64,000 nt of DNA from a virus, in IMG/VR virus record IMGVR_UViG_3300031669_005140; one strand, 5' to 3'. Positions 3,036 through 32,686 of the stretch are shown in pieces. The first letter of the stretch is position 1. Each line of letters opens with the position of its first letter. Below the pieces are notes generated by a model. It had not been told where the DNA came from and did no database searches. It was given only the letters and a program-made list of their open reading frames with translations. A program made the translations under genes and the position numbers.

Positions 3036-3125
3036 AAAATAATTGGACAATGTTACCATAAAATGTAACATTGTCCCTATTGTTTACGTTATAATAATAT
3101 ACAATGTTCACTAAAAATTATTACC

Positions 3126-4046: not shown

Positions 4047-4132
4047 AAATAATTGGACAATGTTGCTATAAAATGTAACATTGTTCTTATTTTTTACGTA
4101 AAATATGTATAAACCAACAAACAATAACCGTC

Positions 4133-6685: not shown

Positions 6686-6880
6686 TACATTGAATAGATA
6701 AAGCGAAAATAAATGGACAATGTTACTGTAAAATGTAACATTGTCCCATTAGTTTTCGTTATAATAATATACAATGTTCACTAAAATAGGTTTAATTAAA
6801 ATATTATAAAAACAAAATTTGACAATTAATGTAACAAAACCAAAATAATTACGTATAAGTAAATAGAAATCACAACAGCA

Positions 6881-18464: not shown

Positions 18465-18679
18465 CTAAAAAACACTTTGCTATGAATAAATTTTTGTTTA
18501 TCTTTACATTCATTTTTGGTGTTATTTCTTTAACGACATACACCAAGGTATTTGATAGAAACATTGCTGGATTTTTTGACACGCTATGGCCAACAGATAC
18601 AACACCACTTTTGAAATGGCTTGACCTAATAATTTTTGTGCTATCGTTAGCATATCAAATTAATTACTGGTTACTGTAA
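18401..18679 (+). CDS. small membrane protein (probable start 18482)
   Basis: Hydrophobic segments after MNKFLFIFTFIFG. Confidence 0.6.
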   Translation: MEHSFKHMYVYNTDNRIAKILTKKHFAMNKFLFIFTFIFGVISLTTYTKVFDRNIAGFFDTLWPTDTTPLLKWLDLIIFVLSLAYQINYWLL

Positions 18680-18732
18680 CAAATTAATTATTCTTACGTA
18701 TAATAAGTATAACAACGTTCTTTGAAGATATT

Positions 18733-19493
18733 GTGAGTGGTAAAATAGATAGATGCTACCGAATTTCAAGGGAAACGGAATCTAGGCATAACCCGTTATA
18801 ACATGTCGTGCGACTGACATAAAAGGCCAAAAGTTATGCTACCACTTACTTTTAAAATTGTAGTGAACTCTTCTACTGAATACAGACAGTGATTAAGGAT
18901 TCTCTGGGCGATGCAACTAAACCTTTAGTCTATGTTATTCATAGCCTACATAGGAATATGCCAGATATTGAGGGATAATATCATAATTCTAAGCTAATAG
19001 GATGTTGTTTGGGGTAAGATAACAGAAGTAAAATAGTTATTGCAACTATACAGAAATTAAGGAGTAATTACCTGAAATCGTAGGCTAATTCATATTAGTA
19101 ATATTGAATGTTATTCCACCTTAGCATTGTGGATAGAAGAGTTTCCTTTTAAAATATTGAAACAAGTAATGCAGAGATGAGTTGAAGCAATTAGAAATAT
19201 CAAAGTTTACTATTGGTAAATATTACTCATTAACTACAGTCGAGTAATAAGATTGTTCAAAATTGTGGATCGGAGTATTACTTGTTTCCCTTATTGAAAT
19301 GCTTATAATAGGTGACTCAAGTAGATGTCAGTAAGCACCTCTTATTAATAGTCTGACAAGTAAGTATTTCTTTAATTTGAAAGTGTTTTGGTGATAAATA
19401 TAAGACACTGAGCTTGGGGAGCCGCTATGAAGTGTTCTGGATATGACAGAAGTCCTCGGATTATAAGTAGTCAGATTATCACCAAACACTTTC
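18733..19493 (+). ncRNA. cluster of five stem-closed structured RNA domains (or one large multidomain RNA)
   Basis: No + ORF after promoter 18675; long closing stems 18733/18849, 18866/19143, 19159/19288, 19296/19370, 19379/19493. Confidence 0.65.
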
Positions 19494-19506
19494 TTTAAAA
19501 CATTAA

Positions 19507-19580
19507 GGGCAATGTTACCGTGGTTGTGAAACAGCGATTGCGGGAATGAGGGGAACACGGTTCGAGTCCGTCATTGTCCA
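19507..19580 (+). ncRNA. tRNA-like RNA with Ala identity elements and no canonical anticodon arm
   Basis: Acceptor GGGCAAT/ATTGTCC-A (G3.U70, A73); T arm ACGG-TTCGAGT-CCGT. Confidence 0.6.
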
Positions 19581-19656
19581 CTAATTAACAATTAAAAACA
19601 TTATCGTCGGAAGGCGATAGTAGCAACAGAAATAATTACGTAATAAACCTGTTGCT

Positions 19657-19728
19657 TGCGATATGGAGTAGGGGTTAACTTGCCCTCAGTACAGGGGGGA
19701 GACATTGGTTCGAGTCCAATTATCGCAA
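19657..19728 (+). tRNA. tRNA-Val(TAC)-like with a non-canonical anticodon loop
   Basis: Acceptor TGCGATA/TATCGCA, D stem GAGT/ACTT, anticodon stem CCCTC/GGGGG, loop AGTACAG, T arm ATTGG-TTCGAGT-CCAAT; no encoded CCA. Confidence 0.75.
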
Positions 19729-19753
19729 CTAATATTAATTAAAACCAATTAAC

Positions 19754-32161: not shown

Positions 32162-32572
32162 ATGACAAAAGAATTCATTCTACATGATTTCAATTTACCT
32201 AACCATAGCAATGAACTTAGCAAGGCTAACGATGTTATTGAAAAACAAAAAAAAGCCGTAGATAAATGCATGAAATTCCAAACAATTGATGACGATACTT
32301 TCATAGCATTGTACGAGGAAATTGTTAGAGCACTTGACTATGTAGGTAGATTGTCCATGCCTGTCTTTGCAATCGAAAACGAAATGGAAGAAATGTATAT
32401 TAAACTACATCCTCACTCCCCTGAACTCGCTAAAAGATTATGGCTTGACAATTATTCGAAAATCCATCACCCGTATTCACTCCTAAAAAATAGATGCTTC
32501 ACCCTTCTCGATAACCTCGATGAACTCTATATCAATATCCATAAGAAAAATCCACCTAACTGGAATATATAA
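32162..32572 (+). CDS. hypothetical protein
   Basis: ORF track. Confidence 0.75.
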   Translation: MTKEFILHDFNLPNHSNELSKANDVIEKQKKAVDKCMKFQTIDDDTFIALYEEIVRALDYVGRLSMPVFAIENEMEEMYIKLHPHSPELAKRLWLDNYSKIHHPYSLLKNRCFTLLDNLDELYINIHKKNPPNWNI

Positions 32573-32686
32573 TGTCCAGATAATGTCCATATTTTATCCA
32601 ACTAATTTATATATAACTAGTTGGCAATGTCCAGATAATGTCCCGATAACTCAGGACATTTTTTTATAATATAATTGTTATAAAAT

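What the first reader, a model, noticed from the sequence alone, without database searches (positions are those of the whole stretch)
19507..19580. 74-nt tRNA mimic with alanine identity (G3.U70, A73) but no anticodon arm
SEEN: acceptor GGGCAAT/ATTGTCC-A and T arm ..GGTTCGAGTCC.. . Between them is a single irregular arm (CCGT..GCGG enclosing a GTTGT-GAA-ACAGC hairpin) in place of the D and anticodon arms. KNOWN: G3.U70 plus A73 is sufficient for AlaRS charging, as in the tmRNA tRNA-like domain. INFERRED: a chargeable mini-tmRNA or tRNA decoy with no tag reading frame. It might titrate SmpB, EF-Tu or tRNA-targeting defence nucleases.
Basis: partly seen in the sequence, partly recalled or inferred. 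Interest (0 to 1): 0.6.

Follow-up and report, generated by a model that had tools for sequence, protein, structure and literature searches.

The report
Anticodon-less tRNA-shaped RNA in phage
A large uncultured phage carries a 74-base gene for an RNA with the top half of a tRNA, including the alanine mark, but no credible anticodon loop; it looks like a stripped-down relative of an unannotated class of non-cloverleaf phage tRNAs, and its function is unproven.

Summary
Window 19507-19580 (+) has an 8-bp acceptor helix (G3.U70, A73, no encoded CCA), stacked on a 4-bp T stem with a canonical UUCGAGU loop (8/4 geometry). It also has one 10-bp arm and a 13-nt purine-rich joiner. ARAGORN and the Rfam tRNA and tmRNA models do not call it (best: tRNA-Sec, 13.5 bits).

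It sits 76 nt upstream of a genuine tRNA-Val(UAC), in a promoter-driven, ORF-free RNA operon of an rIIA/rIIB jumbo phage.

Its scaffold matches "nested-arm" non-cloverleaf phage tRNAs. This scan had flagged such tRNAs before on other DNA. I confirmed two families here by covariation: an 8/4 Arg(UCU) family in 360 cultured-phage records, all sampled members unannotated as tRNA, and a 7/5 family.

Unlike those families, this element has no credible 7-nt anticodon loop.

Both of its ends are copies of the phage's own promoter/terminator palindrome, so G3.U70 is one transition from the palindrome consensus.

I found no homologue other than identical copies, and could obtain no RNA reads.

Best reading: a non-decoding tRNA-shaped RNA handled by RNase P and the CCA-adding enzyme, and possibly alanylated. 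A functionless chimera is the main rival. The tmRNA link is unsupported.

The parts
19507..19514 (+). Acceptor helix, 5' strand (GGGCAAUG). G3 forms the G.U wobble. Positions 19507-19519 are also an inverted copy of the phage's -35 promoter block.
   Evidence: Fold. GGACAATGTTACC with up to 2 mismatches gives 18 hits against 1.3 expected. Only 4 are in + orientation: 3045, 4055, 6715 and 19507.
19515..19517 (+). 3-nt linker UUA
   Evidence: The type A family has a 2-nt linker at this place.
19518..19543 (+). Single long arm: 10 bp (5 Watson-Crick, 5 G.U) with loop GAAACA. The alternative nested fold is CCGU/GCGG around a small hairpin.
   Evidence: Pair probabilities above 0.96. Shuffle p of 0.002-0.004. 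The G.U pairs make it specific to the + strand.
19544..19556 (+). 13-nt purine-rich joiner GAAUGAGGGGAAC. It sits where nested-arm tRNAs carry their D-loop-like GG segment.
   Evidence: Unpaired in the minimum-energy fold. Aligned to the family joiner by model R2.
19557..19571 (+). T arm: 4-bp stem ACGG/CCGU and loop UUCGAGU
   Evidence: The same 11-mer GGTTCGAGTCC occurs in the neighbouring tRNA-Val.
19572..19580 (+). Acceptor helix, 3' strand CAUUGUCC, plus discriminator A. No CCA is encoded (next bases are CTA). With the trailer to 19586 it copies the promoter spacer block.
   Evidence: CATTGTTCACTAATT with up to 2 mismatches gives 8 hits against 0.69 expected. Seven of the eight lie in similar -35/spacer-like blocks (three confirmed as promoter blocks); the eighth is 19572-19586.
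18676..18704 (+). Promoter-like site that probably drives the ORF-free RNA operon holding the element
   Evidence: GTAACA-17-TATAAT, 10 of 12 matches. The same block recurs in relative L001. No terminator-like site lies between 18300 and 20000.
19657..19729 (+). Bona fide tRNA-Val(UAC), 76 nt downstream on the same strand
   Evidence: ARAGORN. Rfam RF00005 at 44.9 bits.

Best explanation
This is a real, strand-specific gene for a tRNA-shaped RNA that does not decode.

Shown:
- An 8-bp acceptor helix stacked on a 4-bp T stem with a canonical T loop. Together these form the 12-bp branch that tRNA-handling enzymes read.
- One 10-bp arm and a 13-nt joiner.
- A location inside a promoter-driven string of non-coding RNAs that ends in tRNA-Val.
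- A scaffold like that of the 8/4 nested-arm phage tRNAs. In those, an outer stem encloses the anticodon arm and a D-loop-like segment follows it.
- No credible anticodon loop here.

Inferred mechanism:
- RNase P cuts at 19506/19507, which also frees the 3' end of the upstream RNA.
- A 3' nuclease trims after A73, and the host CCA-adding enzyme adds CCA. The product is a stable RNA of about 77 nt.
- Host AlaRS can probably charge it through G3.U70/A73.
- It cannot read a codon. It would therefore serve as a processing and stability module of the operon, or as a non-decoding tRNA mimic.

Origin (inferred): a nested-arm 8/4 tRNA-type core joined to the two arms of the phage's own promoter/terminator palindrome.
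For: - Helices are present and non-random. The T loop is canonical and the T stem is flush with the acceptor.
- Five G.U pairs in the arm fit an RNA on the + strand only.
- Operon context: a promoter-like site, no ORF called, no terminator, and tRNA-Val downstream.
- The nested-arm class is real. Type A: 11 sequences, 96.8% of cells paired, 17 of 23 pairs with compensatory change, 0 of 500 shuffles as good. Type B: 16 of 20 pairs.
- That class is missed by ARAGORN and by GenBank annotation.
- The type A model R2, built without the element, makes it the top hit of the 64-kb window: 23.6 bits, E about 2e-4, against 8.2 bits for tRNA-Val. In tRNA-rich loci, the only hits at or above 23.6 bits are themselves non-standard RNAs.
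- L202 has the same 8/4 layout and the same acceptor stem.
- Acceptor plus T-arm hairpins are RNase P substrates (PMC11143913).
- G3.U70 drives alanylation, also in 8/4 tRNAs (PMC9976931; PMC5389517).
Against: - No homologue beyond 100%-identical copies was found. So there is no covariation or conservation evidence for this element itself.
- No RNA data could be obtained, so transcription, processing, CCA addition and charging are all unshown.
- The R2 score is only suggestive, and the inner arm is skipped in that alignment. The type B model gives 10.9 bits, below tRNA-Val.
- Minimum-energy folds mislead in these families, so 'no anticodon loop' rests partly on the atypical G32/C38 and the 3-bp stem.
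- The ends are promoter-block copies, which also fits an accidental chimera.
- Pair 4-69 is C-G, not the G-C of the bacterial alanine set.
Confidence: 0.45

Rival explanations
1. Functionless chimera or relic. Recombination between the phage's promoter/terminator palindrome and a tRNA gene fragment (or decay of a nested-arm tRNA) left a tRNA-like shape. It may be transcribed, and even cut by RNase P, but does nothing for the phage.
For: - Both ends are copies of the repeated promoter block, and the downstream -10 is missing.
- It is an orphan in every collection searched.
- Rfam scores it far below working nested-arm tRNAs: 13.5 bits against about 28-32 bits.
- MAFFT places a partly broken stem around a His-like loop UUGUGAA when it is aligned with type B.
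Against: - The acceptor (8 of 8 pairs), T stem and T loop are flawless. The T arm is exactly flush with the acceptor, giving the 12-bp branch.
- The interior forms a 10-bp helix that tolerates only Watson-Crick to G.U changes, unlikely by chance (p about 0.003).
- It is identical in three independent assemblies.
Confidence: 0.3
2. It is a working decoder: a nested-arm tRNA that presents GUGAAAC as an anticodon loop (GAA, Phe), or uses an 8-nt loop, in a fold that nearest-neighbour energies do not favour.
For: - The GUGAAAC loop has U33 and A37.
- The layout (2-bp CC/GG outer stem, 3-nt 3' bulge, 13-nt joiner) parallels type B tRNAs.
- Family folds of genuine members lie 2-14 kcal/mol above their predicted minimum-energy folds.
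Against: - The stem has only 3 bp beside a G-G mismatch. G32 and C38 could pair and collapse the loop.
- The arm would be 2-4 layers shorter than in either family.
- This fold costs about 10 kcal/mol over the minimum.
- The type B model does not align the arm.
- Relatives G001 and G002 carry canonical tRNA-Phe(GAA).
Confidence: 0.08
3. It is a mini-tmRNA, or a tmRNA tRNA-like-domain mimic, that binds SmpB.
For: G3.U70, A73 and a T arm are shared with the tmRNA tRNA-like domain (sequence).
Against: - ARAGORN's tmRNA search finds nothing.
- The only Rfam tmRNA match is permuted tmRNA at 7.7 bits against a threshold of 47.
- From my own knowledge, tmRNA carries its D-loop analogue 5' of helix P2. 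Here the long single strand lies 3' of the arm, as in nested-arm tRNAs.
Confidence: 0.03
4. It acts at the DNA level only: a terminator/promoter hairpin, or a phage attachment site carrying the 3' end of a host tRNA gene.
For: - The ends equal the palindrome found at 3045, 4055 and 6715.
- The 3' 24 nt resemble tRNA 3' ends.
Against: - The arm's five G.U pairs would be mismatches on the other strand.
- There is no U-tract terminator and no -10 box downstream.
- In GTDB representative genomes the exact 3' 22-mer occurs only in two Christensenellales tRNA-Val genes. None is in Bacteroidota, the host phylum named in earlier scan notes.
- An attachment site would not need the matching 5' acceptor strand.
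Confidence: 0.05

Closest known systems
Nested-arm (non-cloverleaf) 8/4 phage tRNA-Arg(UCU) family ('type A'): Escherichia phage Av-05, Aeromonas AhSzw-1, Salmonella Arash, Acinetobacter Abraxas and KARL-1, many Vibrio phages, and IMG/VR loci L202 and L242. I did not find it described in the papers I searched. This scan has flagged it before.
   Same: - 8-bp acceptor ending in U7-G8, and a 4-bp T stem.
- A 2-3-nt linker.
- An outer stem starting with CC that encloses an inner hairpin.
- A purine-rich joiner with GG leading straight into the T stem.
- G3.U70 is frequent in the family.
- Missed by ARAGORN and by GenBank annotation.
   Different: - Family members have a 6-bp inner stem, an invariant CUUCUAA anticodon loop and a 9-11-nt A-rich bulge. 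The element has none of these.
- Its arm is 11 nt shorter and refolds into one continuous helix.
- Rfam scores are 28-30 bits for the family against 13.5 for the element.
8/4 and 9/3 tRNAs and allo-tRNAs (Mukai et al. 2017, PMC5389517)
   Same: - A 12-bp acceptor/T branch split 8/4.
- Found in phages and in polycistrons of irregular tRNAs.
- Some carry G3:U70 and are charged by AlaRS in E. coli.
- Some appear to be charged but not used in translation.
   Different: As described in that paper, allo-tRNAs remain cloverleaf-type tRNAs with anticodons. The element has a single arm and no anticodon loop.
tRNA acceptor/T-arm minihelices, and tRNA-like small RNAs such as mascRNA and the phage T4 stable RNAs species 1 and 2 (the comparison with these RNAs is from my own knowledge)
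   Same: The acceptor plus T-arm module alone suffices for RNase P (PMC11143913). From my own knowledge it also suffices for CCA addition, and with G3.U70 for AlaRS. These RNAs are released from longer transcripts by tRNA enzymes and do not decode.
   Different: There is no sequence relation. The element's strand order and 8/4 geometry are those of nested-arm phage tRNAs.
tmRNA tRNA-like domain
   Same: G3.U70, A73, a T arm, and no anticodon.
   Different: No match to tmRNA models, no tag reading frame, no pseudoknots, and a different position of the single-stranded D-loop analogue.

Membership tests
Canonical tRNA (Rfam RF00005 / ARAGORN cloverleaf) | Scores above the covariance-model threshold, with D arm and anticodon arm | tested here: not met
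   No RF00005 hit at E<=10. ARAGORN at default settings does not call it. The canonical D-stem and anticodon-stem positions do not pair.
Canonical tRNA (Rfam RF00005 / ARAGORN cloverleaf) | 12-bp acceptor/T branch with a T loop of UUCRANY type and a discriminator base | tested here: met
   8 + 4 bp, loop UUCGAGU, A73.
Nested-arm 8/4 phage tRNA (type A) | 8/4 branch, short linker, outer stem enclosing an inner hairpin, joiner with GG before the T stem | tested here: met
   Fold. Model R2 gives 23.6 bits with these parts aligned.
Nested-arm 8/4 phage tRNA (type A) | Inner 5-6-bp stem with a 7-nt anticodon loop (Y32 U33 NNN R37 A38), followed by an A-rich bulge | tested here: not met
   R2 skips the inner arm. 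The only 7-nt loop candidate has a 3-bp stem and G32/C38.
Nested-arm 7/5 phage tRNA (type B) | Match to the family covariance model | tested here: not met
   R3 gives 10.9 bits, below the canonical tRNA-Val at 16.3 bits.
tmRNA / tmRNA tRNA-like domain | Match to tmRNA models; tag reading frame | tested here: not met
   ARAGORN in tmRNA mode finds none. Rfam permuted tmRNA scores 7.7 bits against a threshold of 47. A 74-nt RNA has no room for a tag frame.
Alanine-accepting RNA (bacterial AlaRS substrate) | G3.U70, A73, G2-C71 and G4-C69 in the acceptor stem | tested here: inconclusive
   G3.U70, A73, G2-C71 and G1-C72 are present. Pair 4-69 is C-G (determinant set from PMC9976931). Charging itself cannot be tested with these tools.
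RNase P substrate | Acceptor stem stacked on a T stem-loop | tested here: met
   Structure. Requirement from PMC11143913. Cleavage itself was not tested.

The most novel reading that the evidence does not exclude
The phage deliberately makes an anticodon-less, alanine-chargeable tRNA mimic: an 8/4 nested-arm scaffold with the decoding loop removed. After RNase P and CCA processing it would do one of two things. It could soak up or divert a host factor that reads only the acceptor/T branch, such as AlaRS, EF-Tu, the CCA-adding enzyme or acceptor-targeting defence nucleases. Or it could deliver alanine to a non-ribosomal acceptor.
Probability: 0.1. Interest if true: 0.8.

Novelty: new variant of a known kind. 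Interest (0 to 1): 0.45.

Why it matters
If functional, this would be a natural tRNA reduced to the half that processing enzymes, AlaRS and EF-Tu read. That would make it a phage-made, non-decoding tRNA mimic, something so far known mainly from engineered minihelices.

Even if it is a relic, it has two uses:
- It shows a tRNA-like acceptor stem built from a phage's own promoter/terminator palindrome.
- It led to independent confirmation, by covariation, that cultured phages carry unannotated non-cloverleaf tRNA genes that standard finders miss. These include phages of E. coli, Salmonella, Acinetobacter, Vibrio, Streptomyces and Microbacterium.

That class matters for phage tRNA counts, codon-usage arguments and the rules of tRNA architecture. 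It can be tested in laboratory phage-host pairs.

Tried and rejected
**Homologue searches that found nothing useful**
- megablast and blastn of the region and of the element against 50,697 phage records.
- Exact or degenerate patterns in IMG/VR, in JGI metagenomes (which found only a near-copy of L202) and in GTDB genomes.
- Neighbour-protein routes. Relatives of the downstream ORF either carry identical DNA (L168-L170) or lack the RNA region (L163-L167). The upstream ORF had no relatives.

**Expression**
So no reads were laid and there is no expression evidence.

**Ideas rejected**
- The GTGAAAC-loop pattern mostly returned canonical tRNAs in which that motif lies in the D arm.
- I first took the hidden element in relative G002 (L039 4197-4272) for a second anticodon-less RNA. 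Alignment with Microbacterium and Streptomyces phage homologues showed it is a nested-arm tRNA-Arg(ACG) that minimum-energy folding mispredicts.
- Type B homology of the inner arm (His-like loop UUGUGAA in the MAFFT alignment): the flanks do not pair, and model R3 does not support it.
- Attachment-site idea: no Bacteroidota tRNA carries the 3' 22-mer in GTDB representatives.
- The identity of the acceptor stem with L202 was largely forced by my search pattern, so I do not count it as evidence of common descent.

Full report
**Observation**

- G1-G8 pair with C66-C73. The third pair is G.U, and A74 is the discriminator.
- The next bases are CTA, so no CCA is encoded.
- ACGG-UUCGAGU-CCGU is a 4-bp T stem with a canonical T loop, and it abuts the acceptor 3' strand directly.
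- The acceptor/T branch is therefore 8+4 = 12 bp.

Between these parts the minimum-energy fold is a 3-nt linker, a continuous 10-bp arm and a 13-nt joiner GAAUGAGGGGAAC.
- The arm is 12-21/28-37, with five Watson-Crick and five G.U pairs and loop GAAACA.
- The interior hairpin is unlikely by chance (p = 0.002-0.004 against 5000 dinucleotide shuffles).

Standard detectors do not call it.
- ARAGORN fails in every standard mode. It reports a poor 'tRNA-?(ggga)' only at an 80% threshold.
- Rfam gives no tRNA or tmRNA hit at E<=10.
- On the 98-nt stretch alone the best hits are tRNA-Sec at 13.5 bits and permuted tmRNA at 7.7 bits.

The stated refutation, 'it folds as a normal tRNA under a covariance model', is not met.

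**Context**

The window is a low-GC (about 30%) phage with rIIA/rIIB. It is distant from all cultured phages. It is related, at about 62-65% amino-acid identity in a GP88 protein, to IMG/VR contigs G001 and G002. CheckV rates these about 30% complete at 90-100 kb, which implies jumbo genomes. They carry more than 25 tRNAs each, including a CUA suppressor.

The element lies in an ORF-free stretch.
- A promoter-like site sits at 18676-18704, and its block recurs in the relative L001.
- No terminator-like site lies between 18300 and 20000.
- A genuine tRNA-Val(UAC) lies 76 nt downstream (44.9 bits).
- Gene callers on identical public contigs call nothing between 18086 and 19753.

An earlier agent of this scan described the upstream 760 nt as a string of modular structured RNAs. 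I did not re-test that.

**Homologues of the element itself**

I found none beyond 100%-identical copies in two ENA assemblies (a third, Logan contig reaches only its last 14 nt).
- Searches of IMG/VR, JGI metagenomes, GTDB genomes and INPHARED by pattern and by BLAST were negative.
- Relatives that share the downstream ORF lack the RNA region.

So there is no covariation or conservation evidence for this particular RNA. I could obtain no RNA reads either.

**What it resembles**

A model built from the element (R1) picked out L202, in an unrelated IMG/VR phage. L202 has the same 8/4 branch and the same acceptor sequence. It has a 2-nt linker and an outer stem CCCAC/GUGGG. That stem encloses a 6-bp hairpin with loop CUUCUAA (anticodon UCU) and an A-rich bulge. 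An 11-nt joiner then leads to the T arm. A metagenomic near-copy, L242, carries a compensatory change in the inner stem.

BLAST of L202 found 360 cultured-phage records, none annotated there as tRNA ('none', 'hypothetical protein' or unannotated records). They include Av-05, AhSzw-1, Arash, Acinetobacter T4-like phages and many Vibrio phages.

Eleven diverse members align cleanly and support the nested structure:
- 96.8% of cells are paired.
- 17 of 23 pairs show compensatory changes.
- 0 of 500 shuffles reach these values.
- Controls with the partner slid by 1-3 columns pair at 40-54%.

ARAGORN misses all of them. For the two members scanned against Rfam (Av-05, AhSzw-1), the best hit is tRNA-Sec at about 28-30 bits, below threshold.

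A second family has 7/5 geometry and anticodons ACG, CCU, UCG and GAU. It occurs in Streptomyces, Microbacterium and Mesorhizobium phages and in relative G002. It is equally supported (16 of 20 pairs).

These results independently confirm earlier notes of this scan on 'rewired D-arm' phage tRNAs. I found no description of this layout in the papers I searched. The nearest published work is on 8/4 and allo-tRNAs, which as described there keep a cloverleaf (PMC5389517).

**Does the element belong?**

The type A model R2 was built without the element. It ranks the element first in the 64-kb window: 23.6 bits, E about 2e-4, against 8.2 bits for tRNA-Val. Acceptor, linker, outer stem, joiner and T arm are aligned, but the inner arm is skipped.

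In tRNA-rich loci the only hits at or above 23.6 bits are themselves non-standard RNAs, and ordinary tRNAs reach up to 22.8 bits. The score is therefore suggestive, not decisive. The type B model gives 10.9 bits.

The only anticodon-like loop is GUGAAAC.
- It has a 3-bp stem next to a G-G mismatch.
- G32 and C38 could pair and collapse the loop.
- It costs about 10 kcal/mol over the minimum-energy fold.

One caution applies. In genuine family members the family fold also lies 2-14 kcal/mol above the predicted minimum. Energy alone therefore does not exclude decoding. The short stem, the shortened arm and the atypical positions 32 and 38 do argue against it.

I conclude that the scaffold is of the nested-arm 8/4 kind and that the decoding part is absent.

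**An unexpected twist**

The element's 5' 13 nt (GGGCAATGTTACC) are an inverted copy of the phage's repeated -35 promoter block.
- There are 18 hits with up to 2 mismatches, against 1.3 expected.
- Only four are in this orientation. The other three form the 5' arms of terminator/promoter palindromes at 3045, 4055 and 6715.

Its 3' strand plus trailer (CATTGTCCACTAATT) is a copy of the promoter spacer block (8 hits against 0.69 expected). It lacks both the TGTAAC -35 box and the CGTATAAT -10 box.

The acceptor stem is thus the phage's own palindrome. G3.U70 differs from the palindrome's A-T pair by one transition. The direction of descent is unresolved.

This weakens the idea that alanine identity was selected. 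So does the finding that G3.U70 occurs in 7 of 11 sampled Arg(UCU) nested-arm tRNAs.

**Mechanism**

Established knowledge:
- Acceptor/T-arm hairpins are cleaved by RNase P (PMC11143913).
- G3.U70 with A73 and G2-C71 directs AlaRS (PMC9976931).
- 8/4 and 9/3 tRNAs with G3:U70 are alanylated in E. coli, and some irregular tRNAs are charged but not used in translation (PMC5389517).

From this I infer three steps: RNase P cleavage at 19506/19507, 3' trimming and CCA addition, and possible alanylation. I infer no decoding.

My estimates:
- 0.45: a non-decoding tRNA-shaped module, serving processing and stability or acting as a mimic.
- 0.30: a functionless chimera or relic.
- 0.08: a working decoder.
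- 0.05: a DNA-level site only.
- 0.03: a tmRNA-like SmpB ligand.

**Verdict**

The element is best filed as a new, anticodon-less variant of non-canonical (8/4, nested-arm) phage tRNA-like genes. Its interest is moderate. It is an orphan with no expression data. It does connect to a widespread, unannotated tRNA architecture, and it shows a tRNA-like acceptor stem made from a promoter palindrome.

Noticed in passing
L248:401-482 (Av-05), L254:401-482, L255:401-484, L251:395-478, L253:381-464, L256:395-479, L249:396-477, L250:395-477, L252:383-467, L202:3777-3861(-): An 8/4 nested-arm tRNA-Arg(UCU)-like gene family occurs in 360 cultured-phage records. All sampled members lack a tRNA annotation and ARAGORN misses them. 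G3.U70 is present in 7 of 11 sampled members, which raises the question of whether they carry Arg or Ala.
   Followed up: partly
L257:294-369, L258:283-359, L259:114-190, L260:117-193, L261:114-189, L262:114-190, L263:90-166, L039:4197-4272(-): A 7/5 nested-arm tRNA family with anticodons ACG, CCU, UCG and GAU. Several members lie directly downstream of an HNH or endonuclease VII gene (G002, A3Wally, TunaTartare; in Zooman with one tRNA between). This hints that an endonuclease and a variant tRNA gene travel together.
   Followed up: partly
L037:1515-1587(-), L039:941-1015(-): Relatives G001 and G002 of this phage carry a tRNA with anticodon CUA (an amber suppressor). TAG may be recoded in this jumbo-phage clade.
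   Followed up: no
window 18846-18871 versus L168:1125-1234: An otherwise near-identical copy of the phage from another sample has an extra unit of about 110 nt inserted in the upstream non-coding RNA array. This fits a modular, unit-by-unit build of that array.
   Followed up: no
window 3045-3076, 4055-4086, 6715-6746: The terminator/promoter palindromes have a 12-bp stem (GGACAATGTTAC/GTAACATTGTCC) and a 7-8-nt loop. These are the dimensions of a tRNA acceptor/T minihelix. Whether they are RNase P substrates is unknown.
   Followed up: no
L100:178-256: A 79-nt RNA gene that starts like a tmRNA (GGGGTTGGACGGTATCGACG...), has G3.U70 and a T arm, but has no room for a tag reading frame. It is a better candidate for a 'mini-tmRNA' than the finding itself.
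   Followed up: no
L004:2393-2640 (= L043:2216-2460): A 134-nt tRNA-like gene with a long insert. It is followed by a T-arm/3'-acceptor piece whose 3' strand (ATTATCC) is complementary to the 5' strand (GGATAAT) of the tRNA-like sequence that comes after it. This may be a permuted or split arrangement.
   Followed up: no
L036:2115-2870: Relative G001 has four consecutive tRNA-like genes of 96-161 nt, with acceptor and T arms but odd interiors. ARAGORN calls none of them.
   Followed up: partly
window 32560-32660: Direct repeats of AATGTCCAGATAATGTCC lie in an intergenic stretch at a strand switch. They look like operator sites.
   Followed up: no
window 1-64000: The Rfam scan at gathering thresholds over the whole window missed the genuine tRNA-Val, which scores 44.9 bits when less sequence is given. 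A negative whole-window scan is therefore not reliable for phage tRNAs.
   Followed up: yes
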